A DNA stretch of 64,000 bases from a virus (IMGVR_UViG_638275431_000001:83196-147195), one strand, 5' to 3'; shown: positions 4,927 to 58,070, numbered from the stretch's first letter. Notes: generated from the sequence alone by a model not told the origin. A program made the numbers and translations.

Positions 4927-4950
4927 AAGGCTCCTTCGGGAGCCTTTATT
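4927..4950 (+). terminator. Intrinsic terminator after wac (UUCG tetraloop)
   Basis: aaggctcc-ttcg-ggagcctt followed by tatt. Confidence 0.75.
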
Positions 4951-4957
4951 GTAAATA

Positions 4958-5006
4958 AAAACTTATCCTTTATGGCTTAATAGATATTATAACTAAAAGG
5001 ATAAAA
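4958..5006 (+). repeat. Intergenic 49-bp conserved repeat, copy 1
   Basis: AAAACTTATCCTTTATGGCTTAATAGATATTATAACTAAAAGGATAAAA, identical at 26780-26828 and 57917-57965. Confidence 0.97.
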
Positions 5007-5041
5007 TTTCGAGCTAGCTCGAAAGGCTCCGCCATAATTTG

Positions 5042-5049
5042 CTTAAATA
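5042..5049 (+). promoter_or_regulatory. Late promoter-like box (CTTAAATA) upstream of gp13
   Basis: Variant of T4 TATAAATA, followed by RBS AAGGAG and the ATG at 5067. Confidence 0.55.
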
Positions 5050-5066
5050 TCATAAAGGAGACACTT

Positions 5067-6011
5067 ATGTCATATACCACTAATAACCCGTTAGAATTAA
5101 AGGACGCTATACTTAGACGTCTAGGTGCACCTATCGTGCACGTTGAAGTAACAGAGCAACAAGTATTTGATTGCATATCTAGAGCTCTTGAATTGTACGG
5201 TGAATACCACTACGATGGATTTCACAAAACATATGCAACAGTAGTATTAACCGAAGAACAAGCTAAAACTGGTGTAATTAGTTTTGCAGGTGGCAATGTT
5301 TTTGCAGTTACTCAGGTAATTCGAACCAATATTGGGTCAATTATAACCATGGACGGCACGGCTGTTTATCCGTGGTTTACTGATTTTGTTATGGGTATGA
5401 CTGGAGCTTCAATTGGCGGCCAATGCCGATGGTATGGGCCTAATGCTTTTGGCGCGGATCTCGGATATTTCACTCAATTGATGTCATATCGAGACATGAT
5501 GGGAGATATGTTATCTCCTTTGCCAGATTTCTTTTTCAACAGCACGACTGAAATGATGAGAGTTGCTGGCAAATTGCAGAAAGGAGATTTGCTGGTATTT
5601 GAGGTTTACTGTAAATCATATGCGAATGTTGACTCGATGCTTTCAGGTGTTGACTCGACACTTTCAGGAACTTCCGCTGGGTATGGATTTGCTATGTCAG
5701 ACGATGATAGCGTGCCATCAGTTGCACAAAAATATGCAAATCCTAATATGTCTCACGGTCAAATTTATGCAGGTCAGTCCAATGGCATGTCGAAGGATAA
5801 TTCGTACAACAACCGCTGGGTAAAAGACATGGCGACAGCATTCGTAAAAGAATTGAATGGCCAAGTTTTAGCGAAACACCAGGGCATGCAGCTCCCGGGT
5901 GGTGTAACAATCGATGGAATACGCCTAATTGAAGAAGCTAGAATAGATATCGATAAGCTTAGACAAGAACTCGAATTGCTGGATGGGCCTCCTCCTATTA
6001 TCATGGGGTAA
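5067..6011 (+). CDS. gp13: Neck protein gp13
   Basis: NNPLELKDAILRRLGAPIVHVEVTEQQVFDCISRALELYGEYH; C-terminal KHQGMQLPGGVTIDG. Confidence 0.95.
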   Translation: MSYTTNNPLELKDAILRRLGAPIVHVEVTEQQVFDCISRALELYGEYHYDGFHKTYATVVLTEEQAKTGVISFAGGNVFAVTQVIRTNIGSIITMDGTAVYPWFTDFVMGMTGASIGGQCRWYGPNAFGADLGYFTQLMSYRDMMGDMLSPLPDFFFNSTTEMMRVAGKLQKGDLLVFEVYCKSYANVDSMLSGVDSTLSGTSAGYGFAMSDDDSVPSVAQKYANPNMSHGQIYAGQSNGMSKDNSYNNRWVKDMATAFVKELNGQVLAKHQGMQLPGGVTIDGIRLIEEARIDIDKLRQELELLDGPPPIIMG

Positions 6012-6014
6012 ATT

Positions 6015-6776
6015 ATGATGGATAAGTCACTATTCGCTACTTTAGAAAATAGAAGCGGATATCAACAAACAAATGAGCAAAATATTCTTAACCCGTATGT
6101 CAAATTCAATCGGTATGAGGGCTCTCAGGCCCTCCACGACACTCTAGTTGCAGAATCTATTCAAATGAGAGGCTTGGAATTTTATTATCTCGAAAGAGAA
6201 TATACAAATTTGGACCTTTTATTTGGAGAAGACCCAAATAGCAGATTTGAAAAAGCATGGAAATTTGCGGCATGGCTCAATAGCTTTGAGTCATATGAGG
6301 GACAACAGAGTTTCTTTTCTAAATTCGGTCATCAGCAAAATGATGAAGTCAGAATTTCTATCAACCCAGGCCTTTTCAAATATCAAGTAAACGGAAAAGA
6401 ACCTAAGCTGGGTGATCTGATTTATATGCCAATGGACAACAGTCTGTTTGAGATAACCTGGGTAGAACCGTATACACCATTTTATCAGATGGGAAAAAAT
6501 CCAATCAGAGTAATTGTTGCTCAGAAATTCATATACTCTGGTGAAAAATTGGCTCCTCAGTTCCAGGAAAAACCTGAAATTGAAGATCAGTATAACGGTT
6601 TAGACTTAGAGCCAATATTGAATTTAGACGGTTTTATCGATCAAAAAATCAATGAGTTTGGCGAAAATGTTCAAGCACAAAATGAAGCTAGACCATTTGT
6701 AGAGCCGTTTGATCCAATTAGCACGAACCCGGTGAATAGTTTTAATAGTCCATTTGGGCGGCATGAGGGACAATAA
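6015..6776 (+). CDS. gp14: Neck protein gp14
   Basis: [31 protein letters not shown]; synteny. Confidence 0.95.
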
Positions 6777-7593
6777 TGTTTGGCAATCATTTTTATAACA
6801 GCTCAATACGTCGATACGTATTGATGCTAATGGAACTTTTTGGTCATATTCAAGTTTCTCGTTTTCGGGATGGCCAGCATTATTTTCAAGATGTTCCTAT
6901 CACATACGCAAGCAAAGAAAAATTTGTAATGTCTATTGACGATATTACGATGCCAACTTCTGAATTCAATATTGCAAAAGTTGAAGCAATTCTTCCTAGA
7001 ATGAATTTGCATTTGATTGATATGCAATATAACCCAATGGTCAAAACTGGAAATACTCAACACAAATGGATAAATAAACCTAATGGGAAAGCATTGGCGC
7101 AATTTAACCCAGTGCCATACACGTTTATGTTTGAACTGGGAATATGGACTCGGCACGAAGATGATGTATTTCAAATAGTTGAACAAATTTTGCCATATTT
7201 TCAGCCGCATTTTTCATGCACAATAACTGAATTGTATGACAATGAAATAATTATTAAAGGACGCGATATCAATATAACTATCACGTCTATAACACCTGAT
7301 GAGCAACTAGATGGCCCCGGCGAACAAAGGCGCCGTATTGAATGGTCAATCATGTTTAGTTTCACTGGTTGGTTATATCCAAACACCAAAAATATTGCAG
7401 GTGAAATTAGAACGATTTATCTTGATTTCTTTGGCAATGAAAGAGAAATAAACAAAGATACTCATTTTGAATCAGTTGATCATCAAGTTGTTCCAAAAAC
7501 GGTGCCAGCTCAAGATTGGGACGGGAGTTCGATAGAAGTATGGACAATTAATACCGATCAGAATACACCGCCTCGACCACAAGGAAATACTCC

Positions 7594-7597
<4 letters not shown>
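6776..7597 (+). CDS. gp15: Tail sheath stabiliser / tail terminator gp15
   Basis: [22 protein letters not shown]...VPITYASKEKF...QIVEQILPYFQPHF. Confidence 0.95.
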
Positions 7598-9878
<2,281 letters not shown>

Positions 9879-9930
9879 ATATAAAGCAATAAATAAACAT
9901 GTGTTAAACTAACTTCCAAGGAACCAAAAT

Positions 9931-11922
9931 ATGGCACTTCTGAGCCCTGGCATTGAAATGAAGGAAACTTCCATCAATTCAACTGTCGTTCGGTCAGCTA
10001 CTGGCCGTGCCGCATTAGTCGGCAAATTCGCATGGGGTCCTGCCTATGAAATTCGTCAAGTAACAAATGAAGTCGAATTGGTTGATATGTTTGGTAGCCC
10101 AGACAATGTCACTGCTCCGTATTTCATGAGTGCTATGAACTTCTTGCAGTATGGTAATGATCTTCGTCTCGTGCGCGTAATTGACATGGAGCAAGCTAAA
10201 AACGCATCTCCACTGTTTAACCAAATCGAAGTAACAATTACTACCGAAGGACAAGGTTATACTGTAGGTGATACAGTTTCTATTAAGCATAACACTACAA
10301 CTGTTACAGAAGAAGGAAAAGTAACTAAAGTTGATGCTGACGGTAAAATTAAGGCTTTGTTTGTTCCTTCATCTGCAGTAATTGCAAAAGCCAAACAACT
10401 GGGAACATACCCTGTCCTCGGAGATAATTGGCGTGCAGAAGTATCAGGCGCGTCCGGTGGTTCTGCTGCAACTCTGACTCTGGGCGGTATTGTAGTTGAT
10501 TCTGGAGTTACCTTTGGTAATTCAGAAGAAGCTCCAGATGTTATGACTTCTACCAAAGTGCTGGCTAATTTTGCCAAATATGGAATGCCTCTGATTTCAG
10601 CAGTCTATCCTGGGGAAATCGGCTCAACTGTCGAAGTTGAAGTAATTTCTAAGACCGCATTCCAAAGTGGTGCAGCCCAACCAATTTACCCGTTCGGTGG
10701 TACTCGCGCAAGCAATGCTCGAAGCGTCATTCAATATGGTCCAATGACCGATGACCAATTTGCGATTATTGTTCGTCGAGATGGTATTGTAGTCGAATCT
10801 ACCGTGCTGTCCACTCGTCGTGGAGATCGAGATGTTTATGGAAATAACATTTTCATGGACGACTATTTCCGCAATGGTTCCAGTAATTTCATTTATGCTT
10901 CTAGTGTAAATTGGCCTGCTGGCTTTACCGGTATCATCCAGCTCGGTGGTGGAGCTTCGGCAAACAATGCTGTTGGTTCAGATGAATTGATTGCTGGTTG
11001 GGATCTGTTTGCTGACCGAGAAGCTCTGCATGTCAACCTGATGATCGCAGGAGCATGTAAATCTGACGGTGTTGCTGTTGCATCTACTGTTCAGAAACAT
11101 GTCGTTGCTCTCGCTGATGACCGCCAAGACTGCGTAGCATTCGTCAATCCTCCGTCAGAATTACTCGTCGGTGTTCCTACCACTCAAGCGGTTAAGAATA
11201 TTGTCGAATGGCGAAATGGTGTGACAACCGGTGGTGAAGTTGTCGACAATAACATGAATATTAGCTCAACATATGCTTTTATTTCAGGCAACTATAAATA
11301 TCAGTATGACAAATACAATGATATTAACCGGTGGGTTCCTCTTTCTGCCGATATTGCCGGATTGTGTGCCTACACCGATCAAGTAGGACATCCATGGATG
11401 TCTCCTGCTGGATATCGTCGCGGCCAACTTCGCAACACCATCAAACTGGCAATTGAACCTAAGCAATCGCTGCGCGATACCATGTATCAAGTGTCAATTA
11501 ACCCGGTTACAGGTTTTGCTGGTGGTGACGGATTTGTTCTCTTTGGAGACAAAATGGCAACTCAGGTTCCATCTCCATTTGACCGAATTAACGTTCGTCG
11601 CCTCTTCAACATGTTGAAGAAAAATATTGGTGATACTTCTAAATACGAATTGTTTGAAAATAACGATGCATTTACTCGCCAGAGTTTCCGTATGGAAGTT
11701 TCGCAATATCTCGACAACATCAGGTCACTGGGTGGTGTTTATGACTTCCGCGTTGTCTGTGATACAACAAACAACACTCCGCAAGTTATCGACAGTAATG
11801 AATTTGTAGCTACGATTTATATCAAGGCTCCTCGTTCAATTAACTACATCACTCTGAACTTTGTAGCGACATCAACTGGTGCTAACTTTGACGAGTTAAT
11901 TGGTCCTGCCCAATTAGCATAA
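9931..11922 (+). CDS. gp18: Tail sheath protein gp18
   Basis: MALLSPGIEMKETS...GKFAWGP; C-terminal FDRINVRRLF...RSINYITLNFVAT. Confidence 0.97.
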   Translation: MALLSPGIEMKETSINSTVVRSATGRAALVGKFAWGPAYEIRQVTNEVELVDMFGSPDNVTAPYFMSAMNFLQYGNDLRLVRVIDMEQAKNASPLFNQIEVTITTEGQGYTVGDTVSIKHNTTTVTEEGKVTKVDADGKIKALFVPSSAVIAKAKQLGTYPVLGDNWRAEVSGASGGSAATLTLGGIVVDSGVTFGNSEEAPDVMTSTKVLANFAKYGMPLISAVYPGEIGSTVEVEVISKTAFQSGAAQPIYPFGGTRASNARSVIQYGPMTDDQFAIIVRRDGIVVESTVLSTRRGDRDVYGNNIFMDDYFRNGSSNFIYASSVNWPAGFTGIIQLGGGASANNAVGSDELIAGWDLFADREALHVNLMIAGACKSDGVAVASTVQKHVVALADDRQDCVAFVNPPSELLVGVPTTQAVKNIVEWRNGVTTGGEVVDNNMNISSTYAFISGNYKYQYDKYNDINRWVPLSADIAGLCAYTDQVGHPWMSPAGYRRGQLRNTIKLAIEPKQSLRDTMYQVSINPVTGFAGGDGFVLFGDKMATQVPSPFDRINVRRLFNMLKKNIGDTSKYELFENNDAFTRQSFRMEVSQYLDNIRSLGGVYDFRVVCDTTNNTPQVIDSNEFVATIYIKAPRSINYITLNFVATSTGANFDELIGPAQLA

Positions 11923-11972
11923 TTCAGCGTTGGGCCCAAATATGGGCCCATAAATAAACATAGAGGTTGATA

Positions 11973-12464
11973 ATGGACGTAACTGATGTCCTCAGGGCTT
12001 TTGAGTCCGGTGATTTCGCCCGCCCTAACTTGTTTGAAATTGAAATCCCATATCTGGGCCAAAATTTCAAATTTAAAGCTAAAGCAGGTACAATGCCGGC
12101 AGCCACTGTTGAAAAAATCCCGGTTGGATACATGAACCGCAAACTTAATGTGGCAGGTGACCGTATTTTTGACGACTGGACGATTACGATTTATACCGAT
12201 TCGGCCCCCATAACACTCGACAGGCAATTGTCGGATTGGAATGCCATGACTCATGGAATGGGTAATGAAATCACTGGCGATATTCCAGAAGCATATAAAA
12301 AGCCTGGCATTGTTCGCCAAAAAGATCGTAATGGAAATACAACTAAAGAATATACCATTGTCGGTCTTTTCCCGACTAACGTTGGTGAAGTTACTCTCGA
12401 CTGGGATGATAACAACACAGTTTCAACATTTGAAACTACGTTTGCACTCGACTGGTGGGAATAA
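11973..12464 (+). CDS. gp19: Tail tube protein gp19
   Basis: RAFESGDFARPNLFEIEIP; C-terminal FETTFALDWWE. Preceded by CATAAATA (11949-11956). Apparent compensated frameshift at ~12205-12234. Confidence 0.97.
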   Translation: MDVTDVLRAFESGDFARPNLFEIEIPYLGQNFKFKAKAGTMPAATVEKIPVGYMNRKLNVAGDRIFDDWTITIYTDSAPITLDRQLSDWNAMTHGMGNEITGDIPEAYKKPGIVRQKDRNGNTTKEYTIVGLFPTNVGEVTLDWDDNNTVSTFETTFALDWWE

Positions 12465-12505
12465 TAAATACAGGCAGCAGTAATGCTGCCTGATTAGGAG
12501 TTTGT

Positions 12506-14689: not shown

Positions 14690-14690
14690 G

Positions 14691-26216: not shown

Positions 26217-26690
26217 TTATTCTCCAATTACGTCCAAAGCGATAGGGATGTATACTTCGATCTGTTTTTTCAACGAAGCAGCGTCAGGGATAGACCATTT
26301 TCCATCTTTCACACCGGCTGACAGCTGTGCCATGAGTTTTCCGGTGATAAGATTGGTATTTGGGCCATGCACCCGGTAAAGGTCTAGCACAGCTTTACCA
26401 TTGACGACCGAGTTATATTGTTCGTCAGTAATGGCTTGAGGAATAAACTGGGAAAGAAGCGCTTCTTCTCGATATGCGTTGGCAAGGTCATATTGATTGT
26501 ATTTTTGAGCAATACGCTCGCGAATTCCCTTCAAAAGGGAATTGATTACTTTGATAACTGCAGCGTCGGAATTATCTCGAGTTTGCTGGACCTGGCCGAT
26601 TACTAGACCAAGAAGATTTGCAGCTTTAGCACCATCAGAGCCAAGCTTACGAAAAGACATACGGACTTCTTCAATTTTATCGATGATCAT
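26217..26690 (-). CDS. GatB/YqeY-domain protein
   Basis: Helical KAANLLGLVIGQVQQ...DAAVIKVINSLLKGIRE...REEALLSQFIPQAIT pattern. Confidence 0.65.
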   Translation of the reverse strand: MIIDKIEEVRMSFRKLGSDGAKAANLLGLVIGQVQQTRDNSDAAVIKVINSLLKGIRERIAQKYNQYDLANAYREEALLSQFIPQAITDEQYNSVVNGKAVLDLYRVHGPNTNLITGKLMAQLSAGVKDGKWSIPDAASLKKQIEVYIPIALDVIGE

Positions 26691-26779
26691 GTTTTACTCT
26701 CCTTTAGTGTTGAGGCTAGTATCACACTATAAATCGATAGTTTAACAGTAAAATCTGGCTTCCAGGTTTTGGCCTTGCC

Positions 26780-26828
26780 AAAACTTATCCTTTATGGCTT
26801 AATAGATATTATAACTAAAAGGATAAAA
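26780..26828 (+). repeat. Intergenic 49-bp conserved repeat, copy 2 (structured unit ~26752-26865)
   Basis: Identical core. It also shares CTGGCTTCCAGGTTTTGGCC(T/C)TGCC upstream with copy 3. Confidence 0.97.
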
Positions 26829-26972
26829 ATTAACGAGCAAGCTCGTTGGAGCCCATGGGCTCCAGTATTGTTTTTACATCCCGTTTCCTGGAGTATCTTA
26901 TTCTTTTCAGCAATTCAACTGACTTTTTATTTATGCTGTTTCCCAGGTGACTTTTTTCTTGTAATTTGATAC

Positions 26973-26998: not shown

Positions 26999-27382
26999 TT
27001 AATTTGAAAGCTTCATTTTTATTTCGTCTATCACTGCTGGATTATCGATAATCGAAAATCGAATTGTAACAATTAGTTCATTATTATCGTAATTTCCGGT
27101 TGAGTCGACTTGAAGGTTGTATACGCGTGGCTCAAAGTTTCGTATAGCCGTTTGAATATTTCGTCTAACCGTGTCTATCACCAACGGTGTAATGTTTTCA
27201 AATAGCTGATCTGGTAAGTCGCAACCAAAGTATGGGTTAAATGGTCTCGCACCAATGGGAGTAGAAACTATCCCTATGATAGAATTTTTTACAGCACGAG
27301 CTCCTCTTGTCATTAACACATCATTGTCCCATGATTTGTTGAAATCTGGGTCAAGATCTGTATAAAGCAGATTTATGTTCAT
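26999..27382 (-). CDS. gp25: Baseplate wedge subunit gp25
   Basis: LYTDLDPDF...AVKNSIIGIVSTPIGARPFNPYFG...AIRNFEPRV. Confidence 0.95.
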   Translation of the reverse strand: MNINLLYTDLDPDFNKSWDNDVLMTRGARAVKNSIIGIVSTPIGARPFNPYFGCDLPDQLFENITPLVIDTVRRNIQTAIRNFEPRVYNLQVDSTGNYDNNELIVTIRFSIIDNPAVIDEIKMKLSN

Positions 27383-49821: not shown

Positions 49822-49844
49822 TACTTTTTGAAAGATTTTGATGC

Positions 49845-49871: not shown

Positions 49872-49876
49872 CTATA

Positions 49877-50761
49877 TTAGCCGAGAAGAGCATCCAGATC
49901 GTCATCGAGATCAGAAGAAGCATCAGGCACAGATGGCTGAACTACATCAGTGTCGAACGAGGTAAGCTGTTCGTCGAAGTCATTCAGTTCGCTAGACAGA
50001 GAAGAAGCGGCAGAAGCGGCAGCACCAGCAGTGATGGAAGTACCCATTACTTGCTTGAATTTCTTCTCCAGTTCTTCAAGAGGCTTGAATTCGGAAGGAG
50101 CAACGATTTTGCTCAAATCTTCCATGCCATCATTGAGGAACTTTTGGAATTCGGGGTCGTTGATTTTTGCAATTTCTGATTGAGCCAAGAATTTGCAGTC
50201 ATCGTAGTTGGTAAAACCACCAACTTTCTTGGTTTTGTAAACGAAGTTTGCACCTTCGAAAACACAAGTTACGTCTACTGGAGTTTCGCCCATTTCCGGA
50301 TCGACGTTAATCATGGCGGTAATTTTTTCCATTACCTTTGCACCAATACGAATCTTCATCACCTTGCCTTCATTTTCAGGAGTGGCAGGGTCTTTGATTA
50401 CCAGAATATTTGCCCAATAGGAAGTCTTACGCTTCAGCAGCTTATATTCTTCAGCATTGGTGTTGTAAGAATCATTGCGGCTGAGATGTTGGCAAACCGG
50501 GCAGTTGTCAAAATCACCATGGGTAGAAGAACAATTTTCAATATACCATTTGTTATTTTTCTTAAAGCCGTGGTTAATCAGCTTAACAAACGGAAGACCT
50601 TCATCACCTTTACCCGGAAGGAAACGAATTACGGCTTGACCATTACCAGCTGCATCAGTTTTCAGTTTCCATTCATTCTTATCTCCACCAAAACCACCTG
50701 CATTACCTTTCAGAGCGGCCAGTTGAGCTTGAAGTTGAGAAGGATTGCTGCGCTTGAACAT
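49877..50761 (-). CDS. gp32: Single-stranded DNA-binding protein gp32
   Basis: [54 protein letters not shown], acidic tail. Confidence 0.98.
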
Positions 50762-50830
50762 ATTTTATTTTCCTATTTTATTTTGACAGTTGTTTTTGCG
50801 TTTTTACATTTTACATCAATTTTGATATAG

Positions 50831-51490
50831 CTAAACTTCAGCTTTAAACTCTTTTACGTGTTGAATAAACTTGGCTTTAGCTATGTCATTATTTATTACT
50901 ACCAATTTCCGGTAATTGACCAATTTGGTATGCCAGTTCTGCCAGATTATATCAGCTGACATTTTCTCATCGATTTTGTCGATTATACCAAGGAATGAAT
51001 CAATAACCAAAAATGTTTCTCTTTTAATCAGACCCGACTGGAGTAATTTGAAAATTGGGCTTGTTTGTTGTTTTTCATTATACTCCAATAGTTTACCTAT
51101 CGGAACATTAACTTTATTAGAAAAATACACCAGATTTTTCAGGTCTTCCCTGTATATTTCAGAGAATCTGATGTATCTTCCCAACAATTCTCGATGGGCT
51201 GTCATTGCATCTTCAGAAACAAGATCTCCAGCCCAACCACTTGAATTTTCCAAAAACGTTGCCAGAAATATCTCTGTCAAGTCTTTAAGGTGAAATTTAT
51301 CGCTCATCTTATCAAAGAAGTACTTATCTCTACGTTTATTAAACGCAGCATCAGTAACTTTCATATTCCAACTATATTTGATTATGTCATATTTTCCAGC
51401 CATATGTTGTTTCATCATCAAATAAAGCATAAATGCGCCTTTTGCACTAATAAATCTATCAGGTCTAGGCGGATATCGAAGAGCGATCAT
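50831..51490 (-). CDS. gp59: Helicase loader gp59
   Basis: LYLMMKQHMAGKYDIIKYSW...AAFNKRRDKYFFDK. Confidence 0.95.
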   Translation of the reverse strand: MIALRYPPRPDRFISAKGAFMLYLMMKQHMAGKYDIIKYSWNMKVTDAAFNKRRDKYFFDKMSDKFHLKDLTEIFLATFLENSSGWAGDLVSEDAMTAHRELLGRYIRFSEIYREDLKNLVYFSNKVNVPIGKLLEYNEKQQTSPIFKLLQSGLIKRETFLVIDSFLGIIDKIDEKMSADIIWQNWHTKLVNYRKLVVINNDIAKAKFIQHVKEFKAEV

Positions 51491-51497
51491 ATAAATC

Positions 51498-51755
51498 TCA
51501 CATCAAAAAGTCCAAACTATTTCGTGTCATCGATTTTGCAATGGAAGGTCTAAGCATGTCGGAATCGACACATTCTTTTGACAGTTTGTCAATTACCGCC
51601 CGCGGGATATATTTGTGGCACGAGTTAATTTCTAAAGAATTTTCTTCCAACCACTGAACACATGCTTCCAGATATGTCAATCCAGTTTTAACCAGATTTT
51701 CTATCTCTATCCCGTTTGCGGTTTTATCATTCAGATTGTTCGGATTTGACATCAT
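51498..51755 (-). CDS. gp33: Late transcription co-activator gp33
   Basis: NGIEIENLV...TYLEACVQWLEENS...DMLRPS. Confidence 0.92.
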   Translation of the reverse strand: MMSNPNNLNDKTANGIEIENLVKTGLTYLEACVQWLEENSLEINSCHKYIPRAVIDKLSKECVDSDMLRPSIAKSMTRNSLDFLM

Positions 51756-52036
51756 TTGCCTTTAAAGGTTTGGTCATACACTGAAGTAACTTCATCGGCA
51801 GCATCTTCAAACTGCTCACGTTCCTGCTTGTGGTAAATCCGGAACAGCTGATTGAACAGTTTGCCGTCAACACCACATTCAGTAATGGCAATATTGCGCT
51901 GCTCTTTTACCTTTTCAGCATAAGATTCTTGCATAGTGCGCAAATTTGATGCTTCGGTAATAATTTCTTGGAGACGTTCGCCATGAACAGACGGGTTGAA
52001 TTCGACTTTTTCTTTCTTTTTCTTCTGCTCTTTCAT
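51752..52036 (-). CDS. dsbA: Double-stranded DNA-binding protein DsbA
   Basis: VEFNPSVHGERLQEIITEAS...GVDGKLFNQLFRIYHKQEREQFE. Confidence 0.92.
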   Translation of the reverse strand: MKEQKKKKEKVEFNPSVHGERLQEIITEASNLRTMQESYAEKVKEQRNIAITECGVDGKLFNQLFRIYHKQEREQFEDAADEVTSVYDQTFKGK

Positions 52037-52045
52037 GTTATTTCC

Positions 52046-52960
52046 TTAGAATTGATTTACTTTATCGAGAAGTTTAACCAAGCCATTTTTAACAAAATAG
52101 CTGTACAATTTACCACGAGGATTGACTACTGAAGAATTATAAGCTTGAATGATTCGATCCGAAACATGTGCTGGAATTTTATCCAAATCAAGCAGCCGGA
52201 CATTCATATCCCAACGCTTTTGCCATTCTTCATTTTCCAACGCAGCTCGAGGGTCTTCAGATTCAACAATTGAATTAATCCACTTGGTAGAACAAGGTGG
52301 AGCACGTTCACCTTCGACACGGTCAAGGACAAATGTATCACGAACTTTTATTCCCGAAACACCATCTTTTGCATCACCCTTAATCAGTTTAACAAACAGG
52401 TCGTGCTTTGGACTACCATATTTTGGCTTTACTGCTTTCTTCTGAGCAGGTGAATATTGCTTGACACCCTTGTATTTGTGCAATTGAGTAAAGTCAGAGT
52501 CAGAAGAAGAAATCATAACACATCGGCCTTCTTCAGTGAACTTTTTGACCAAAACTGCAATAATATCGTCAGCCTCAGTTTTATCAAGTTTGATCATCTT
52601 AACACCTGGGTAGATATTAAGCATTTCGTTGACCACTTTATTGATAATACTAAAGAGAAGTTCCCAATCCCATGGAGATTCCTTTTTATTAGCCTTTCGG
52701 TTTAATTTGTAATACCAAGCAATGTCACGTCTCCAATAAACCATTGCAGAATCGTCAAATGCGATAATAGTTTCGGGATATTCGTTTTTGAACTTTTTGA
52801 CGTTGTTTCGAACCGTATCCAGAATTAAATGTCTGAGCATTCGCTCATTTACATCTTCAGGAGTAAAGTTAGCCATTATTGTCGCGATAATTAATTGAGA
52901 TGCGTCAATAATATTGACATCATCCTTTGTGGTTTCACCCATGAAATCATTTAAGTTCAT
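52046..52960 (-). CDS. rnh: RNase H (T4-type 5' exonuclease, FEN family)
   Basis: IIDASQLIIAT, YWRRDIAWYYK, TEADDIIAVL, ISSSDSDFTQLHKY, IKGDAKDGVSGI. Confidence 0.96.
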   Translation of the reverse strand: MNLNDFMGETTKDDVNIIDASQLIIATIMANFTPEDVNERMLRHLILDTVRNNVKKFKNEYPETIIAFDDSAMVYWRRDIAWYYKLNRKANKKESPWDWELLFSIINKVVNEMLNIYPGVKMIKLDKTEADDIIAVLVKKFTEEGRCVMISSSDSDFTQLHKYKGVKQYSPAQKKAVKPKYGSPKHDLFVKLIKGDAKDGVSGIKVRDTFVLDRVEGERAPPCSTKWINSIVESEDPRAALENEEWQKRWDMNVRLLDLDKIPAHVSDRIIQAYNSSVVNPRGKLYSYFVKNGLVKLLDKVNQF

Positions 52961-53032
52961 ATCAATTTCTCTTATTGAACACCTAGACATACTAACATAA
53001 ATAACTAAGTTAGTAACAGGAGAGCTTCAAAA

Positions 53033-56000
53033 ATGTTAGGACAAGCCTTTCGCGCCACAAGCGGCCTTGATGCAGCTGGCGAAAAACTGATCAACGTTGC
53101 AATGGCCGATAAGACAATTTTGTCCGATGGCGTTAGCGTTGGATTTTTCCACAAATATAACACAATTTACGAATATGACAGCACCCGTGGGTATGATGCA
53201 AAACATGCTGTAATTTTCGAGAGACGAATTTATTATGCGAAAGCAGATATTGCTTCCCCGGCAGGAGCTTTCGACGTCACAAAATGGACTGGTCTCCGTG
53301 TTGACCCAACATGGCAGTTCATTAACTCGACTGGGCCCGCACTTCAGCTGAGTTCTGGTCAATATATCACTGCTGACAATAGATTCAACAATCTGGTTTT
53401 CAACTTGCCAACATCACCAGTTGATGGCGATACTTTGGTAATAAAGGACGTAGGCGGTCAACCAGGTGTTAACGATCTGGAATTTGTATCTATAGGAACA
53501 GCAGTCATTGAATTCAAGGCAGCCAGTGTCGGCGCTCGCTTCCGTGCAACTGTCCCATTCTGCCAATATATGTTCGTCTATAAAGCAGCTGGAAACAGAT
53601 GGCAAGTAGATGTAGCAGCTACAGCAGTGAACAGTTATTTCGTTGAACCATCTATTCAAGGATTCCAGTTGCAGGCAGGGATGGTTACCTGGAGACGTAC
53701 TTCTGCAGGAACAATTCGCCTTATTCTGCCAAAACATGCCAGACATGGCGATGTAATTACAACCCATGATATTGATGGGATGAACCCGATTAACCACTCG
53801 ACTCTTGAGATTTACCCAGGTTCAGGTCACAATATTAATGAAATAGGTGTTACAAAAATTGAATCGCGCACATCAGGTTACGGTTCATTTGTATTCGATT
53901 TTCCTTCTTTGACTTGGAAAGTATGGGATGGAGACCAAAGGACACGTATTCGTGTTACCAAAACAGACACAGCACTGCTACCGTTTGAACACATTCTGGT
54001 GACTGGTAACAGTAATTTGCCAAGTCAGACCACCGTGCTGACTCTTCCAGAGGAAGTAGCCATAGGCGACCGTGTTCAAATCACTATGGATTATCTGAGA
54101 AAAGGTCAAACTTGTACGATCAGAGTAAGTCCAGATTCAAATGAGCTGATTGTTGGGTCGAAAGCTCAAATGCAGTTCCAGCGTCGTTCGGAATACCCGA
54201 TGACAAATGGATGGGAATTGGTTTCATCTATTTCTATAAGTGCTGACACAGATTACGTTCCATATGTCGAGCTAATGTACGCACAGTTAGACCCGTCCCT
54301 GGTGGGTGTTACTTCTTCTCAGTACGGTTGGATGATTGGTAATGTTCAGCCAAAAGTTGAACGTGTTGATGCAACTAAACGTGATCGTCTGGGTGTAGCT
54401 GCTCTCGCGGATCAAGCAGAAGTAAACAAAAATCACGAAGATAACCCGAATGATGAAACTATTGTCACACCGAAAACATTAGCTAATAAAACTGCTACTG
54501 CAACTCGTCGTGGTATTGCTCGTTTGGCAACAACAGCTGAAGTTAATCAGTTAAGCACTTCAACTTATTTGGATGATATCATCGTAACTCCAAAGAAGTT
54601 GAATGAAAGAACAGCTACTGAAACTCGCCGTGGTTTAGCGGAAATTGCTACTCAGGCCGAAACAAACGGATCAACTGACGACATAACAATTGTGACTCCC
54701 CAAAAGTTGCATAATCGTATTGCGTCAGAAACTCTGACTGGTATCTTAGCGGTGGTTTCTAAAAATGGAACAGCTGGAACTGCTCGCTCGACTGCTGGGA
54801 CTGGTGTGTATAACAAAGCCGATCAGTCGAAAGCTGTCACACCGTTAACCCTGGATGAATTCAAGGCTACCGAAACAGCTAAGGGTATAGGTTATATTGC
54901 CACACAGGCGGAAGTCGACGGGGGATCATCTGATCCACTTGGGCCGTTGTTTGTAACAGCCGAAAGATTGGGAGCTCGTCGAGCGACAGAATCAAATCAT
55001 GGTCTGATTGAGATTGCAACCCAGACTGAAACAAACGCTGGAACTGATGATACCCGTGCTATTACTCCCAAAAAGTTGAATGATCGCACTTCAACAGAAA
55101 CTCTCACCGGTATTGCCCGTATTGCCACGACATCTGAAATAGATACTGCGACAAACGATTTAACTATCGTCACTCCATTGAAATTGAAGAATCGTTTCAA
55201 CAATACGGCAAGAATTTCGGTAAACACGACTGATGGTTTGACCCAATCTGGAACCATTTGGAGCACTGTTTCTGTTGGAATAAGTCTTGCTACAGAAGCT
55301 CAACGCGGGACATTGCGTGTTTCGACTCAACTTGAGGCGAATGGATCTAGTTCGGACAATACTATCGTAACTCCAAAGAAACTTGATGGAAGAAAAGCGA
55401 CAAGAACTCTGGACGGTATTATCCGGGTTGCGACAACTGCTGAAGTTAGAACTGGGACAGCAACTAATTTGGCTGTTAGTCCAGAAGACTTTAAGTATAT
55501 AGCGCAAACTGAACCGACATGGTCAGGAAATGAAACACGCCGTGGGTTTGTCAAAGCAGCAACAGTAGAGTCAACTTTCGTTGGAAACAATAATGTTGGA
55601 TCCACTCAGGCATACACAAGCTACGAAAATGACGGTTTGGCTGTTAGCCCTCGTGGATTGAACTATGCACTGCAAAACTACTTGCCGCTGAATGCTACAG
55701 CGCAAAATTCATTGAATTTGGGTGGTGTAGTTTCCAGCGGGTGGGTTCGCAGAACAGTAGATCAAACCGTAACAGGTGGAATGACTTTTACCGCTGCGAT
55801 GATAGCTGCAGATATTACCAATACTACGACAACTAGTGCAAGAGTGATTATCGATAACACATCGACAAACTCTGTTCAAATAGGTAAAACTAGAGTTGCT
55901 GGTGGAGCCAATGGTATCACCATAATGGCTGGAAGTGATGCCGCAATAAACGATTGGGCATTTATTGCAGGCGGTGTTGGTGGTTCTGAAGTTACCGGTA

Positions 56001-56698
56001 GCGAAATTGCTATTGCAACTAAAGACGGTTCAACTTTCTCTAGTAAGCTGAAAGTTAATAGAGACGGCGATGTACGAATTGCACAACATATAAAATCAAC
56101 TGCTGGTTTCCTTGTTATGGAAAACACAGGTGCGAGAATTTATCTGGGTGGAACCGAATTAGCGGCGAATCAATTTGCGCAATCTGTTGCAGGTGGATTC
56201 ACAGTTGGTAATGCTAGTTCAACAATGGCTGTATTGGCAAGCTCTACTGATGCCTTCACAATTAATGGCTCACCGGTAATTAATACTGCCAACGCTCAGA
56301 CAAAGCTCAACCCAACATATCTTCGTCGTGATGGTACATCGACTATGACTGGAGCAATGCTTCTGTCAAACACCGGTGACAATGTTAAGTATTTGCAATT
56401 CAAAAACTCAAATCGTTACATTACCTCTCGTGGAAATGACTTCGTTTTCGGAAATACTGATACAACGAATGGCCGTGTGTGTCTTGATACGAATCAGAAT
56501 CCAATCGTAAAGATCGGAAACTTTGAGTACGAGATTTATCACAAGGGTAACAAACCTACCGCTCAAGACGTAGGTGCAGTTGATATTACAGGTTCATCTT
56601 CCAATAATATAACGATTAGAGATTGGATCAAAATTGGTAATGTGAAAATCGTTGCCAACAACTTGACCAAGACAGTTGAGTTTATCTGGGAAGAATAA
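53033..56698 (+). CDS. gp34: Long tail fibre proximal subunit gp34
   Basis: FRATSGLDAAGEKLINVA, multiple RRGIARLATTAEV/ETIVTPKTL repeats, C-terminal KIGNVKIVANNLTKTVEFIWEE. CATAAATA at 52996-53003. Confidence 0.96.
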   Translation: MLGQAFRATSGLDAAGEKLINVAMADKTILSDGVSVGFFHKYNTIYEYDSTRGYDAKHAVIFERRIYYAKADIASPAGAFDVTKWTGLRVDPTWQFINSTGPALQLSSGQYITADNRFNNLVFNLPTSPVDGDTLVIKDVGGQPGVNDLEFVSIGTAVIEFKAASVGARFRATVPFCQYMFVYKAAGNRWQVDVAATAVNSYFVEPSIQGFQLQAGMVTWRRTSAGTIRLILPKHARHGDVITTHDIDGMNPINHSTLEIYPGSGHNINEIGVTKIESRTSGYGSFVFDFPSLTWKVWDGDQRTRIRVTKTDTALLPFEHILVTGNSNLPSQTTVLTLPEEVAIGDRVQITMDYLRKGQTCTIRVSPDSNELIVGSKAQMQFQRRSEYPMTNGWELVSSISISADTDYVPYVELMYAQLDPSLVGVTSSQYGWMIGNVQPKVERVDATKRDRLGVAALADQAEVNKNHEDNPNDETIVTPKTLANKTATATRRGIARLATTAEVNQLSTSTYLDDIIVTPKKLNERTATETRRGLAEIATQAETNGSTDDITIVTPQKLHNRIASETLTGILAVVSKNGTAGTARSTAGTGVYNKADQSKAVTPLTLDEFKATETAKGIGYIATQAEVDGGSSDPLGPLFVTAERLGARRATESNHGLIEIATQTETNAGTDDTRAITPKKLNDRTSTETLTGIARIATTSEIDTATNDLTIVTPLKLKNRFNNTARISVNTTDGLTQSGTIWSTVSVGISLATEAQRGTLRVSTQLEANGSSSDNTIVTPKKLDGRKATRTLDGIIRVATTAEVRTGTATNLAVSPEDFKYIAQTEPTWSGNETRRGFVKAATVESTFVGNNNVGSTQAYTSYENDGLAVSPRGLNYALQNYLPLNATAQNSLNLGGVVSSGWVRRTVDQTVTGGMTFTAAMIAADITNTTTTSARVIIDNTSTNSVQIGKTRVAGGANGITIMAGSDAAINDWAFIAGGVGGSEVTGSEIAIATKDGSTFSSKLKVNRDGDVRIAQHIKSTAGFLVMENTGARIYLGGTELAANQFAQSVAGGFTVGNASSTMAVLASSTDAFTINGSPVINTANAQTKLNPTYLRRDGTSTMTGAMLLSNTGDNVKYLQFKNSNRYITSRGNDFVFGNTDTTNGRVCLDTNQNPIVKIGNFEYEIYHKGNKPTAQDVGAVDITGSSSNNITIRDWIKIGNVKIVANNLTKTVEFIWEE

Positions 56699-56707
56699 GG
56701 AATCGTT

Positions 56708-57850
56708 ATGGCAGAACAATTTATGGCCCATCTTGGGCCATCTTACGTTGAATCAAATCACTTAGGTGAAAATAACGCGATAAAGTACATGATACAGGCA
56801 CTTGGAGTCAATGCTGACTCCAGTGTCAGAGTGCCGTATGTCAAAATCAATGGTGTTTCGGTTTTGCCTTCGTATGGGAGGGGTTTGAACGCTATCACTA
56901 TTTCTCCAACCGGAGTAGCATCTAATTTTGCGACGTTTGACATATATGGTAGACCCGAGCATCTTGACACTCTAAGAACATATCTAATGTCTGCACCGTC
57001 TGACAATATAGTAGTATTAGTTTCGCATGATGCTATCAGATCGTCAGTGGATTTTGACACATTCATGAAACAATATGGATCTATGTCGTGGCCTGGTTCT
57101 AGTTATCTAAATCGACAATCCGATGCTCTTTTTACCCCGAGAGCATATAGAAGTTCATATGCTGCAATTTTCAATACGACGTTAAAGCGTTTTTGCTACG
57201 AGAATTTTGTTGGGAATAATCCTAACAGTTTCGCAGAAGACACAAATGCCTATTTGCAAGTTGTTTTTGACGACGTTGTCGATATTGGAGCATGCGGATT
57301 ACCATCAAGAAATGTCGATAACATAAATGAATATTTCTCAGTGGGGAATCAATACGAATTTAAGCGTTATTTGTCTGAAAATATAACAACACAATGGGAA
57401 TCAATATATTATATCCAATGCGAGCTGTACAGCGACCAGACACTAGTTACCGCCGGTGGAAGATGTCTTTTTTATGTATGGACTCAAGACTCTTCAGGCA
57501 TATGGAAAACCAGTAGATGGCTAGGAACACCAACACCGACTCCAGGCGTGTGGACAAAATTTGAAGGTTATTTCAAACTGCCAACGCAAAGCTCAGGGGC
57601 GACGATTTTTGCTTCTGTGGCATACCGATATCCGTCAAACGTCAGCGCTGGAACAGCAGGTGTGCGAAATGTCACTATAACGCGGGTCACAAGGGACGAT
57701 GATGATAAAGTGGCGGATGCGGCAATTGGTGTGAATGGTATTAGAGCTAATAGCATAAGCAATAACGACAATTACACAAATCCTGTATTACAGCTTTTGA
57801 ATCTTAAACCGAATAATATCATTACTTCAAACGATTTTAACGAAAGATAA
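56708..57850 (+). CDS. gp35: Long tail fibre hinge gp35
   Basis: FMAHLGPSYVESNHLGENNAIKY...AAIGVNGIRAN; synteny. Confidence 0.9.
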   Translation: MAEQFMAHLGPSYVESNHLGENNAIKYMIQALGVNADSSVRVPYVKINGVSVLPSYGRGLNAITISPTGVASNFATFDIYGRPEHLDTLRTYLMSAPSDNIVVLVSHDAIRSSVDFDTFMKQYGSMSWPGSSYLNRQSDALFTPRAYRSSYAAIFNTTLKRFCYENFVGNNPNSFAEDTNAYLQVVFDDVVDIGACGLPSRNVDNINEYFSVGNQYEFKRYLSENITTQWESIYYIQCELYSDQTLVTAGGRCLFYVWTQDSSGIWKTSRWLGTPTPTPGVWTKFEGYFKLPTQSSGATIFASVAYRYPSNVSAGTAGVRNVTITRVTRDDDDKVADAAIGVNGIRANSISNNDNYTNPVLQLLNLKPNNIITSNDFNER

Positions 57851-57871
57851 GGGCCTCTTGGCCCTTTGTTT
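57849..57871 (+). terminator. Intrinsic terminator after gp35
   Basis: aagggcc-tctt-ggccctttgttt. Confidence 0.7.
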
Positions 57872-57916
57872 GCTTTAAATAGAATAAAATCCTGGCTTCC
57901 AGGTTTTGGCCCTGCC

Positions 57917-57965
57917 AAAACTTATCCTTTATGGCTTAATAGATATTATAACTAAAAGGATAAAA
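57917..57965 (+). repeat. Intergenic 49-bp conserved repeat, copy 3 (structured unit ~57888-58003)
   Basis: Identical core enclosed by outer stem AATCCTGGCT(T)CCAGG / CCTGGAGCCAGGATT. Confidence 0.97.
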
Positions 57966-58070
57966 AGATAAGTTCAAGCAAGCTTGAACCTGGAGCCAGG
58001 ATTGCTTTTAATTCGAGTGCTTTAAATATAACAAGAAATCACCAATCATTGGTTAAACAAGGGAGCCCAT

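What the first reader, a model, noticed from the sequence alone, without database searches (positions are those of the whole stretch)
4927..58003. Three-copy, 100%-identical 49-bp intergenic element in a covarying multi-stem fold (candidate structured sRNA family or origin element)
Seen: AAAACTTATCCTTTATGGCTTAATAGATATTATAACTAAAAGGATAAAA occurs exactly at 4958-5006, 26780-26828 and 57917-57965, 22-31 kb apart. It is always on the + strand, although local genes run rightward at copies 1 and 3 and leftward at copy 2. The core is itself a stem (TTATCCTTT...AAAAGGATAA). Flanks differ in sequence but keep the same fold. 5' hairpin: TTTATT-gta-AATAAA, TTTTGGC-ctt-GCCAAAA, TTTTGGC-cct-GCCAAAA. 3' hairpin: TTTCGAGC-ta-GCTCGAAA, AACGAGC-aa-GCTCGTT, TTCAAGC-aa-GCTTGAA. 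An outer GGCT(T)CC/GGAGCC stem closes each, with arms swapped in copy 1. This gives a four-way junction with compensatory changes. Every copy lies between an intrinsic terminator and a promoter. Inference: selection acts on both the core sequence and the structure. It could be a late non-coding RNA with an invariant protein-binding arm, an R-loop/cruciform replication origin (T4 ori(uvsY) and ori(34) map near the loci of copies 2 and 3), or a miniature mobile element. I do not recognise it as a described family.
Basis: partly seen in the sequence, partly recalled or inferred. Interest (0 to 1): 0.88.

Follow-up and report, generated by a model that had tools for sequence, protein, structure and literature searches.

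The report
Six-copy easily melted phage intergenic repeat
The three identical 49-bp sequences are real and belong to a six-copy repeat that Aeromonas T4-like phages keep at the same six evenly spaced gene junctions; it was annotated long ago in relatives but never explained, looks like a DNA site that opens easily (possibly where replication starts), and does not look like an RNA gene.

Summary
The 49-mer is exact at 4958, 26780 and 57917. The genome, an Aeromonas phage 25-type Tulanevirus, holds six copies, one of them on the minus strand.

The family is not undescribed. GenBank annotates it in phages 44RR2.8t and 31 as a six-copy intergenic repeat ('repeatA'). This scan has also reported it before, on this genome and on another. 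I found no paper that assigns it a function.

- **Sites:** All six are syntenic between Tulanevirus and Biquartavirus. The element is sense to the flanking genes at three sites and antisense at three.
- **Arms:** The 10-bp inverted-repeat arms never vary.
- **Loop:** The 24-25 nt loop differs by lineage.
- **Flanking palindromes:** They covary freely.
- **Four-way junction:** The proposed closing stem forms fully only at copy 3, so it is not a conserved feature.
- **Duplex stability:** The cores are among the least stable 30-44 bp windows of three genomes. In AhFM11 all nine cores take ranks 1-9.
- **Spacing:** The sites are regularly spaced (P about 0.003).
- **Arm 9-mer:** It occurs almost nowhere else in these genomes.

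Best reading (0.4): an insulated, sequence-specific DNA unwinding element, possibly an origin or helicase-loading site. Rivals are a transcription boundary module, another DNA-transaction site, a selfish repeat and an ncRNA. Interest is moderate.

The parts
4927..4946 (+). Copy 1, hairpin 1. This is the wac terminator hairpin: 8-bp stem, TTCG loop, T-rich tail.
   Evidence: Sequence; folds locally as RNA and as DNA.
4945..4959 (.). Copy 1, hairpin 2. An AT-only variant (TTTATT-gta-AATAAA) that contains a TAAATA late-box-like hexamer.
4962..5004 (+). Copy 1 core: invariant inverted-repeat arms around a 24-nt AT-rich loop. The exact 49-mer spans 4958-5006.
5007..5024 (.). Copy 1, hairpin 3 (palindrome TTTCGAGC-ta-GCTCGAAA). 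Read on the minus strand it is followed by the T-rich arm, which is terminator-like.
5044..5049 (+). TAAATA late-promoter-like box for gene 13 (ATG at 5067), downstream of the element.
26755..26765 (.). Copy 2, hairpin 1 (CTGG-ctt-CCAG).
26766..26784 (.). Copy 2, hairpin 2 (GTTTTGGC-ctt-GCCAAAAC).
26784..26826 (+). Copy 2 core (49-mer 26780-26828). It lies between the uvsY-slot ORF (26217-26690, minus) and gene 25 (26999-27382, minus), antisense to both.
26832..26847 (.). Copy 2, hairpin 3 (AACGAGC-aa-GCTCGTT). Terminator-like on the minus strand.
26848..26863 (.). Copy 2, hairpin 4 (GGAGCCC-at-GGGCTCC). Terminator-like on the plus strand.
57849..57866 (+). gp35 intrinsic terminator, just upstream of copy 3. 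It is not part of the repeat.
57889..57903 (.). Copy 3, hairpin 1 (CCTGG-ctt-CCAGG). At this copy it can also pair with 57989-58003 to form an outer closing stem.
57903..57921 (.). Copy 3, hairpin 2 (GTTTTGGC-cct-GCCAAAAC).
57921..57963 (+). Copy 3 core (49-mer 57917-57965), between gp35 and gp36 and sense to both.
57972..57989 (.). Copy 3, hairpin 3 (GTTCAAGC-aa-GCTTGAAC). Terminator-like on the minus strand.
57989..58003 (.). Copy 3, hairpin 4 (CCTGG-ag-CCAGG), which is also the 3' half of the copy-specific outer stem.
58023..58028 (+). TAAATA late-promoter-like box for gene 36 (ATG at 58071), downstream of the element.

Best explanation
The element is a cis-acting DNA site, not an RNA gene.

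**Shown**
- Each copy has an invariant 10-bp inverted repeat (TTTATCCTTT / AAAGGATAAA) around a 24-25 bp TA-rich spacer. Together these are among the most easily melted 30-44 bp stretches of the genome.
- G+C-rich palindromes of variable sequence but conserved symmetry bracket the core. Several of them are followed by T-runs and read as transcription stops in both directions.
- The core is therefore a sharply bounded, transcription-insulated region prone to opening.
- Six such sites sit at fixed, evenly spaced gene junctions.

**Inferred**
- A factor reads the arms by sequence.
- Negative supercoiling opens the spacer or extrudes it as a hairpin or cruciform.
- The opened structure serves as an entry point for the replication or recombination machinery. 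It could act as an origin-type unwinding element, a helicase-loading site or a cruciform-cleavage site.

My odds are about 0.6 that it acts at the DNA level, and about 0.25-0.3 that it is specifically a replication-initiation site. The 0.4 given for this entry is for the whole statement, including the inferred mechanism.
For: 1. **Orientation is uncoupled from transcription.** The element is sense to flanking genes at wac|13, 35|36 and 2|3. It is antisense at the rIIA-proximal, gene 55-upstream and uvsY-slot|25 sites. The same holds in both genera.
2. **The arms are read by sequence, not only as a stem.** Nine to ten arm pairs never vary in 23 distinct copies, whereas the flanking hairpin HP2 has changes on both sides in 5 of 6 pairs.
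3. **The arm 9-mer is almost exclusive to the elements.** The counts are 12 of 13 occurrences here, 15 of 16 in 44RR and 17 of 19 in AhFM11.
4. **The cores are the easiest places to melt.** Among least stable duplex windows they rank 3-8 (30 bp) and 2-6 and 14 (44 bp) in this 161-kb genome. They do not stand out at 100 bp. In 44RR they rank 3-6, 9 and 18 at 30 bp. In AhFM11 all nine cores take ranks 1-9 at both 30 and 44 bp, although the loop sequences differ between lineages.
5. **Spacing is regular.** The minimum gap is 17.8 kb, with P = 0.004 analytically and 0.003 against intergenic slots.
6. **The sites are ancient and fixed.** All six are syntenic between genera whose gp13 proteins are 82% identical, while the surrounding intergenic DNA is largely unalignable by eye.
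7. **Terminator-like hairpins bracket the core** on both strands at all three window copies.
8. **T4 offers a loose precedent.** It uses at least five dispersed origins, and one (oriF) lies in the uvsY|25 slot where copy 2 sits (PMC3016281).
Against: - There is no experimental evidence of any kind.
- According to the review, T4 origins share no local motif, and oriF/oriG depend on a MotA middle promoter. The phage encodes MotA and AsiA homologues, but by inspection the core has no MotA box and -10 at T4 spacing, and the Biquartavirus loop lacks GCTT.
- Only one of six sites matches a mapped T4 origin slot exactly. T4 oriA (near soc) and oriC (near rI.-1) do not correspond to any site.
- No initiator or binding protein was identified. 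The neighbouring ORFs gave nothing telling.
- An AT-rich loop and palindromes are also what an RNA hairpin cluster or a terminator module would look like.
- The core hairpin is weak as single-stranded DNA (-4.7 kcal/mol).
- The spacing statistics in the three genomes are not independent, because the sites are syntenic.
- Palindromes can be kept symmetric by template switching without any selection.
Confidence: 0.4

Rival explanations
1. It is a transcription-unit boundary module. The palindromes form RNA hairpins that terminate or attenuate transcription from both sides and protect 3' ends, so the element insulates neighbouring operons. The conserved core would be an accessory part, for example a U-tract or a factor-binding hairpin.
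For: - Every copy lies between the end of one transcription unit and the promoter of the next. TAAATA late boxes precede genes 13, 36 and 55.
- HP3 read on the minus strand is followed by the T-rich arm and was flagged as terminator-like at all three window copies. HP2 and HP4 on the plus strand, and HP1 on the minus strand, are flagged at some copies.
- At the three antisense sites the minus-strand terminator faces the upstream gene.
Against: - wac and gp35 already have their own canonical terminators upstream of the element.
- I found no TAAATA box between the element and gene 3, so transcription probably has to read through it there.
- A U-tract role does not explain the absolute invariance of the arms, including the internal CC. 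It also does not explain the lineage-specific but within-genome uniform loop, the extreme duplex instability or the regular spacing.
- The genome has 48 intergenic gaps of 100 bp or more, but only six carry the element.
Confidence: 0.22
2. It is a binding or action site for some other genome-wide DNA transaction, not replication initiation. Examples are strong sites for the phage type II topoisomerase, domain or condensation anchors, or recombination and packaging-related sites.
For: The same DNA-level evidence applies as for the best explanation: orientation independence, invariant arms, exclusivity of the arm 9-mer and regular spacing. Biquartavirus copies carry a second direct copy of the right arm, and AhFM11-type phages carry tandem cores. 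Both suggest multiple binding units.
Against: No protein candidate was found. Sequence identity between this phage and AS-gz shows no step at the 35|36 element, so that copy is not a mosaic boundary in that comparison. Nothing tested here separates this reading from the origin reading.
Confidence: 0.15
3. It is a selfish or neutral palindromic repeat, REP- or MITE-like. It would be kept uniform by gene conversion and template switching and have no function for the phage.
For: - It is a repeated, palindrome-rich, intergenic element.
- Whole flanks of 100 bp or more are identical between some sites (gene 55 and 35|36 here; 55, 2|3 and 35|36 in 44RR), which shows ectopic conversion.
- Hairpin loops flip between avDM7 and UP87 at one site (GCTTCGC versus GCGAAGC).
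- The AhFM11 lineage has tandem duplications.
Against: - The same six sites and orientations occur in two genera, with no gains at new sites in the genomes examined.
- Spacing is regular rather than random.
- The arms are invariant while neighbouring intergenic DNA has diverged.
- Low duplex stability is preserved even though the loop sequence changes.
- No transposase or RAYT-type gene was noticed.
Confidence: 0.1
4. It is a discrete structured non-coding RNA family. It would be transcribed from the core strand, and the invariant hairpin would be a protein-binding arm.
For: - The folds are much more stable than shuffled sequence (z -3 to -7).
- HP2 and HP3 covary.
- The 3-bp inner extension of the core stem shows AU to UA and GC to GU changes. 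The GU pairs work only on the plus strand. The 44RR rIIA-proximal copy also has one arm G-T wobble on that strand.
- TAAATA boxes precede copy 3 and lie inside hairpin 2 of copy 1.
Against: - Both strands fold equally well because the parts are palindromes.
- No promoter box is conserved upstream across sites or genera.
- The flanking stems contain no G-U pairs that would give a strand asymmetry.
- There is no Rfam family. Only sub-threshold plant miRNA hairpin models match, and they match both strands.
- The four-way junction is not conserved.
- Regular spacing and extreme duplex instability are not expected of an RNA gene.
Confidence: 0.08

Closest known systems
GenBank 'repeat_region' of Aeromonas phages 44RR2.8t ('6 copies of repeated sequence detected in intergenic regions of genome') and 31 ('31repeatA_n')
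   Same: It is the same family. The arms are identical, the loop is about 75% identical (18 of 24 positions), the hairpin layout is the same, and the six syntenic sites and orientations are the same.
   Different: The Tulanevirus version has its own loop sequence. It mostly lacks the spacer between hairpin 2 and the core, and the second copy of the right arm is degenerate. The GenBank note records only that a repeat exists. I found no function or analysis in the papers searched.
PeSL cassettes (promoter-early stem-loop) of RB49/phi1 T4-type phages, Arbiol et al. 2010 (PMC2839356)
   Same: Both are repeated intergenic motifs with stem-loops in T4-type genomes. That paper mentions PeSL-like sequences in Aeromonas phages 44RR2.8t and 25 at the gene 43 split.
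   Different: The consensus scan calls no sigma70-type promoter inside any of the three window copies. The stems are not GGGG/CCCC. The copies sit at conserved core-gene junctions rather than around ORFans in hyperplastic regions, and they show no sign of gene shuffling. None of the six copies lies in gene 43.
T4 replication origins oriF(uvsY) and oriG(34): R-loop origins made of a MotA middle promoter plus a DNA unwinding element; also oriE with 12-nt iterons (review PMC3016281)
   Same: Both systems have several dispersed sites per genome. Both have an easily unwound AT-rich segment next to promoters. One copy occupies the uvsY|25 slot, and most copies lie in late-gene regions.
   Different: T4 origins share no common motif. 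By inspection, no MotA-type promoter with T4 spacing lies inside the element. The inverted-repeat and clamp architecture is not described for T4. Origin activity is untested.
Bacterial REP/BIME palindromic elements
   Same: Both are clusters of short intergenic palindromes in either orientation, and both can act as terminators or as binding sites for DNA-handling proteins.
   Different: There are six fixed copies rather than hundreds. An invariant AT-rich inverted-repeat core is present. No RAYT-type transposase was noticed, and there is no positional polymorphism.

Membership tests
44RR/31 'repeatA' intergenic repeat (GenBank annotation) | Sequence similarity to the annotated repeat_region | tested here: met
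   blastn gives 79% identity over 96% of the 114-nt copy 3, and the hit falls on the annotated features. Arms are identical and the loop matches at 18 of 24 positions.
44RR/31 'repeatA' intergenic repeat (GenBank annotation) | Six intergenic copies per genome at the same loci | tested here: met
   There are six copies here and six in 44RR, including a slightly mutated rIIA-proximal one. The flanking genes match.
PeSL (promoter-early stem-loop) cassettes | Sigma70-type early promoter (-35, 17 bp, -10, AT-rich upstream region) within the motif | tested here: not met
   The consensus scan finds no such promoter inside any of the three window copies. A minus-strand TATAAT sits in the loop, but no -35 lies at 16-18 bp (inspection).
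PeSL (promoter-early stem-loop) cassettes | Location around variable ORFan genes in hyperplastic regions, mediating gene shuffling | tested here: not met
   The copies flank conserved genes (wac|13, 35|36, 2|3, 55, 25) and are syntenic across genera. No identity step appears at the 35|36 copy.
T4-type R-loop origin (oriF/oriG) | MotA-dependent middle promoter directing transcription into the unwinding element | tested here: not met
   MotA and AsiA homologues exist. No MotA box and -10 at T4 spacing lie in the core on either strand, and the Biquartavirus loop lacks GCTT (inspection). The MotA box of these phages is unknown.
T4-type R-loop origin (oriF/oriG) | DNA unwinding element of low duplex stability | tested here: met
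   The cores rank among the least stable 30-44 bp windows in three genomes.
T4-type R-loop origin (oriF/oriG) | Supports origin-dependent replication during infection (plasmid assay, 2D gels) | not testable with these tools
   This needs an experiment.
Rfam RNA families | Match at or above a family's gathering score | tested here: not met
   No match at gathering score in the 64-kb window. The permissive search gives only sub-threshold miRNA-precursor models, on both strands.
Intrinsic (Rho-independent) terminator | G+C-rich hairpin followed directly by a T-run | tested here: met
   HP3 on the minus strand is flagged at all three window copies. HP2 or HP4 on the plus strand and HP1 on the minus strand are flagged at some copies. 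These are consensus matches only, and termination was not measured.
REP/BIME or MITE-type mobile palindromic repeat | Variable insertion sites or copy number between related genomes, with a cognate transposase | tested here: not met
   Tulanevirus and 44RR-type Biquartavirus genomes share the same six sites. The only copy-number change seen is tandem duplication in place in AhFM11/Asfd_1. No systematic transposase search was done.

The most novel reading that the evidence does not exclude
The six copies are the replication origins, or helicase-loading or cruciform entry sites, of these phages. This would be a multi-copy origin built on a shared sequence: an arm-specific inverted repeat around a clamped unwinding element. 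No T4-type phage is known to have such a thing, since T4's own origins share no motif.
Probability: 0.25. Interest if true: 0.8.

Novelty: new variant of a known kind. Interest (0 to 1): 0.5.

Why it matters
How T4-type phages choose where to start replication is still poorly understood. T4's five or more origins share no motif, and only two are understood mechanistically. This is a family of six identical, positionally fixed, evenly spaced sites that are also close to the easiest places in the genome to unwind. If they prove to be origins or loading sites, they would give a clean, sequence-defined system for studying initiation, and a first target for finding the factor that reads the arms. 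If they prove to be only boundary elements, they still show how a phage keeps a multi-copy cis element uniform across 160 kb by concerted evolution. In either case the repeat has sat in GenBank for about twenty years, and I found no published explanation for it.

Tried and rejected
- **Rfam.** The gathering-score search and the permissive search found no family.
- **Literature.** Searches for 44RR repeats, IC-UTS and Aeromonas T4-like stem-loop repeats gave only the PeSL paper and reviews. None describes this repeat.
- **IMG/VR scan with the exact arms**. Only Aeromonas T4-like contigs are real hits. The other matches have unrelated loops and flanks.
- **Bacterial genome scan**. The pattern was too loose. 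It returned about the number of hits expected by chance, and no Aeromonas hit was among the rows listed.
- **Metagenome scan**. It found two Tulanevirus-type contigs and no new lineage.
- **Sigma70 or MotA-type promoter inside the core.** Rejected on spacing (and inspection).
- **Conserved late promoter upstream of the element.** I derived this phage's late box as TAAATA. Boxes precede some copies but not consistently across sites or genera.
- **G-T versus A-C asymmetry in flanking stems, to choose a strand.** The stems are perfect Watson-Crick, so this gave no information.
- **Trans-factor hunt among ORFs next to two copies**. It found only a DprA-like protein and proteins of unknown function.
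- **Mosaic or recombination boundary at the 35|36 copy, compared with AS-gz.** There is no identity step. The apparent truncation in AS-gz coincides with an N in the record, which is probably an assembly problem.
- **Arm 9-mer as a general promoter or regulator box.** Rejected, because it occurs only in the elements.
- **Small ORF in the core.** ATG-GCT-TAA exists in the Tulanevirus loop only, has no ribosome-binding site, and is absent from Biquartavirus. Rejected.

Full report
**1. Observation**

The 49-mer is present exactly at window 4958-5006, 26780-26828 and 57917-57965, all on the + strand. None of 100 dinucleotide shuffles produced a match.

The window is G000 83196-147195 of a 161,475-bp phage record. 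The 43-bp core occurs six times in that genome. Five copies are on the + strand and one is on the - strand, and two copies have a single change at the first base. 'Three copies, always on the + strand' is therefore true of the window only.

**2. Identity of the genome and of the repeat**

- The region is 97.5-100% identical to Aeromonas/'Stenotrophomonas' phages IME13, Aes012, Aes508, phiAS4 and relatives, which belong to genus Tulanevirus.
- A sensitive blastn with copy 3 finds the element in 42 phage records. All but two are Aeromonas phages, and those two are IME13 records.
- In phages 44RR2.8t and 31 (Biquartavirus) the hit falls on annotated features. The notes read 'repeat_region ... 6 copies of repeated sequence detected in intergenic regions of genome' and '31repeatA_2 similar to other 31repeatA and to 44RRrepeatA'. 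The family has thus been on record since those genomes were deposited.
- I found no paper that analyses it. The PeSL paper mentions only 'sequences similar to PeSLs' at the gene 43 split of 44RR and 25. The mobile-element review mentions the IC-UTS of gene 43. Other searches gave nothing.
- Earlier agents of this scan reached the same identification on this genome and on another.
- Rfam has no match.

**3. Where the copies sit**

Using the Aes012 annotation and my own Pfam/PHROG checks, the six sites are:

| Site | Flanking genes | Element strand |
|---|---|---|
| rIIA-proximal small ORFs | - | + |
| upstream of gene 55 | - | + |
| gene 2 \| gene 3 | - | - |
| wac \| gene 13 | + | + |
| uvsY-slot ORF \| gene 25 | - | + |
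| gene 35 \| gene 36 | + | + |

The same six junctions carry the element in the same relative orientation in 44RR, avDM7 and UP87. The element is sense to the local mRNA at three sites and antisense at three.

gp13 is 82% identical between the two genera and at most 57% identical to anything else. The element is therefore an old, fixed feature of this two-genus clade. Scans of IMG/VR, bacterial genomes and metagenomes found no further lineage.

**4. Anatomy**

- **Arms.** Each copy is centred on the inverted repeat TTTATCCTTT / AAAGGATAA(A). In 23 distinct copies from five genomes the nine inner arm pairs never vary. One 44RR copy, not in that alignment, has one arm change that leaves a G-T pair.
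- **Loop.** It is lineage-specific. Tulanevirus has a 24-nt version. 44RR-type Biquartavirus has a different 24-nt version that matches at 18 of 24 positions. AhFM11/Asfd_1-type phages have a 25-nt version, mostly as tandem pairs about 115 bp apart and slightly heterogeneous. Within Tulanevirus and within the 44RR type, all six loops of a genome are identical, which means concerted evolution. A 3-bp inner extension of the stem shows AU to UA and GC to GU changes.
- **Flanking palindromes.** HP3 has a perfect stem of 6-8 bp in 29 of 29 copies, and HP2 has one of 5 bp or more in 28 of 29. Only 3.6% of random 30-nt genome windows reach 6 bp. Their sequences differ between sites within one genome, with changes on both sides. 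For HP3 the left arms seen are TTCGAGC, TTCAAGC, TTTGAGC, AACGAGC and TTCGGC. For HP2 they are TTTGGC, TTTGAC and TTCGAC. In the alignment, 5 of 6 HP2 pairs and 2 of 7 HP3 pairs change on both sides, and three rows are misaligned in HP3. The covariation score exceeded all 500 shuffles and all slid controls. What is maintained in the flanks is palindromy, not sequence.
- **Outer hairpins.** HP1 and HP4 are more variable. At copy 1, HP1 is simply the wac terminator.
- **Outer closing stem.** It forms fully at copy 3, and partly at the gene 55 copy and one 44RR copy, where HP1 and HP4 happen to be the same palindrome. Copies 1 and 2 and most others fold as strings of local hairpins, as RNA or as DNA. 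The four-way junction is therefore not a family feature.
- **Strand symmetry.** Both strands fold equally well (z about -3 to -7). The flanking stems contain no wobble pairs that would identify a functional strand.

**5. Tests bearing on function**

(a) *Promoters.* TATAAATA is rare in this genome (7 copies). The hexamer TAAATA is sevenfold enriched upstream of ORFs, so it is probably this phage's late box. Such boxes lie downstream of the element before genes 13, 36 and 55. Boxes lie upstream of copy 3 and inside HP2 of copy 1. No box is conserved upstream of the element across sites or genera. The consensus scan finds no sigma70 promoter in the element. MotA and AsiA homologues are encoded, but by inspection the core has no MotA box and -10 at T4 spacing, and the Biquartavirus loop lacks GCTT.

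(b) *Terminators.* HP3 read on the minus strand is followed by the T-rich arm. It is called terminator-like at all three window copies. HP2 and HP4 on the plus strand, and HP1 on the minus strand, are called at some copies. The core is thus bracketed by stops in both directions. I found no TAAATA box between the element and gene 3, so read-through in the sense direction probably occurs there.

(c) *Arm exclusivity.* TTATCCTTT occurs 13 times in this genome. Twelve are in the elements, and none is elsewhere in intergenic DNA. The counts are 15 of 16 in 44RR and 17 of 19 in AhFM11.

(d) *Duplex stability.* Using nearest-neighbour energies, the six cores rank 3-8 among the least stable 30-bp windows of the 161-kb genome. 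At 44 bp they rank 2-6 and 14. At 100 bp they no longer stand out, because the G+C-rich palindromes bound them. In 44RR they rank 3-6, 9 and 18 at 30 bp. In AhFM11 all nine cores are ranks 1-9 at both 30 and 44 bp. The loop sequence changes between lineages but the extreme ease of melting is kept, which points to DNA opening as the selected property.

(e) *Spacing.* The gaps are 27.5, 40.0, 17.8, 21.8, 31.1 and 23.2 kb. The chance that six random points on the circle have a minimum gap this large is 0.004. It is 0.003 when points are drawn from the 76 intergenic slots of 60 bp or more. For 44RR the value is 0.012, and for AhFM11 (five loci) it is 0.053. These are not independent tests, because the sites are syntenic.

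(f) *Recombination boundary.* There is no identity step at the 35|36 copy in the comparison with AS-gz.

(g) *Neighbouring ORFs.* They gave no candidate binder.

**6. Interpretation**

An RNA acting in cis should keep its orientation relative to the genes. This element does not, and it has no conserved promoter of its own. A mobile element should show polymorphic sites. This one is fixed at six junctions in two genera and is evenly spaced. A plain terminator module explains the palindromes. It does not explain the invariant arms, the uniform lineage-specific loop, the exclusivity of the arm word or the extreme instability of the core.

The most economical reading is a DNA site. Its arms are read by sequence, and its spacer is built to open. 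G+C-rich palindromes confine the opening and also keep transcription out.

What the site is for is inference. T4 uses at least five dispersed origins. Their R-loop mechanism needs an unwinding element, and oriF lies in the uvsY|25 slot where copy 2 sits (PMC3016281). From general knowledge of T4, the helicase loader gp59 prefers fork and cruciform DNA, and endonuclease VII cuts cruciforms. An extruded core could therefore start replication directly or through a break. This rests on my own knowledge and was not tested.

Against this, the same review says T4 origins share no motif. Only one site matches a T4 origin slot exactly, and there is no initiator candidate and no experiment.

My odds are:
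- DNA-level element: about 0.6.
- Best-explanation entry as a whole: 0.4.
- Origin or loading site specifically: about 0.25-0.3.
- Boundary or terminator module: 0.22.
- Other DNA transaction (topoisomerase, anchoring): 0.15.
- Selfish repeat: 0.10.
- ncRNA: 0.08.

**7. Novelty and score**

The repeat as such is already annotated in relatives, and this scan has reported it before. The Tulanevirus copies are new members of that family. The architecture does not fit PeSL, REP/BIME, T4 origins or any Rfam family. The new quantitative points are arm invariance against flank covariation, arm-word exclusivity, the genome-wide stability ranks in three lineages and the regular spacing. Together they make a concrete, testable case for a sequence-defined unwinding element. 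I rate it a new variant of a known kind (phage intergenic palindromic repeats).

Noticed in passing
window 26217-26690 (-); G000 C1:31997-32572 (-): The genome has no detectable UvsY-family gene (PF11056). The uvsY slot between uvsY.-2 (DUF2685) and gene 25 holds a 157-aa ORF with weak YqeY/GatB-like similarity. A DprA-like recombination-mediator gene lies two genes upstream of gene 55, next to another copy of the repeat. It might be a replacement mediator.
   Followed up: partly
whole genome G000; e.g. window 5044-5049, 58023-58028: The T4 late-promoter octamer TATAAATA is rare here (7 copies). The hexamer TAAATA is sevenfold enriched upstream of ORFs (25 ORFs against 3.5 expected) and precedes many structural genes. 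The late box of this phage therefore seems relaxed to nTAAATA.
   Followed up: partly
L106-L115 (AhFM11 ON042478, Asfd_1 MK577502): In the AhFM11/Asfd_1 lineage the cores occur mostly as tandem pairs about 115 bp apart. The spacer between them keeps short conserved blocks, namely a TAtAAT-TCT block after a palindrome and ATTTAATT before the second core. The loops are slightly heterogeneous within a genome.
   Followed up: partly
L095 (avDM7) versus L101 (UP87), gene 55-upstream copy: The hairpin 3 loop is inverted between two close relatives (GCTTCGC versus GCGAAGC). This is the signature of a palindrome-mediated loop flip, by template switching or cruciform resolution. GCGAAGC-type mini-hairpins recur in the 44RR copies.
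   Followed up: no
L239 (AS-gz NC_042019) 3080-3085: The AS-gz record has an N where hairpins 3 and 4 of the 35|36 copy should be. This is probably an assembly or sequencing failure at the palindromes and not a real deletion.
   Followed up: partly
G000 12733, 107441 (window 24246), 111196 (window 28001), 131911 (window 48716): Four other intergenic spots rival the repeat cores as the least stable 44-bp duplex windows of the genome. Two of them lie in divergent-promoter gaps (inh|uvsW and 26|51). None carries the arm motif.
   Followed up: no
own genome copies at gene 55 and 35|36 (L001, L004); 44RR copies at 55, 2|3 and 35|36: Whole elements including flanks (100 bp or more) are identical between sites 40-110 kb apart. 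This shows ectopic gene conversion well beyond the core.
   Followed up: partly
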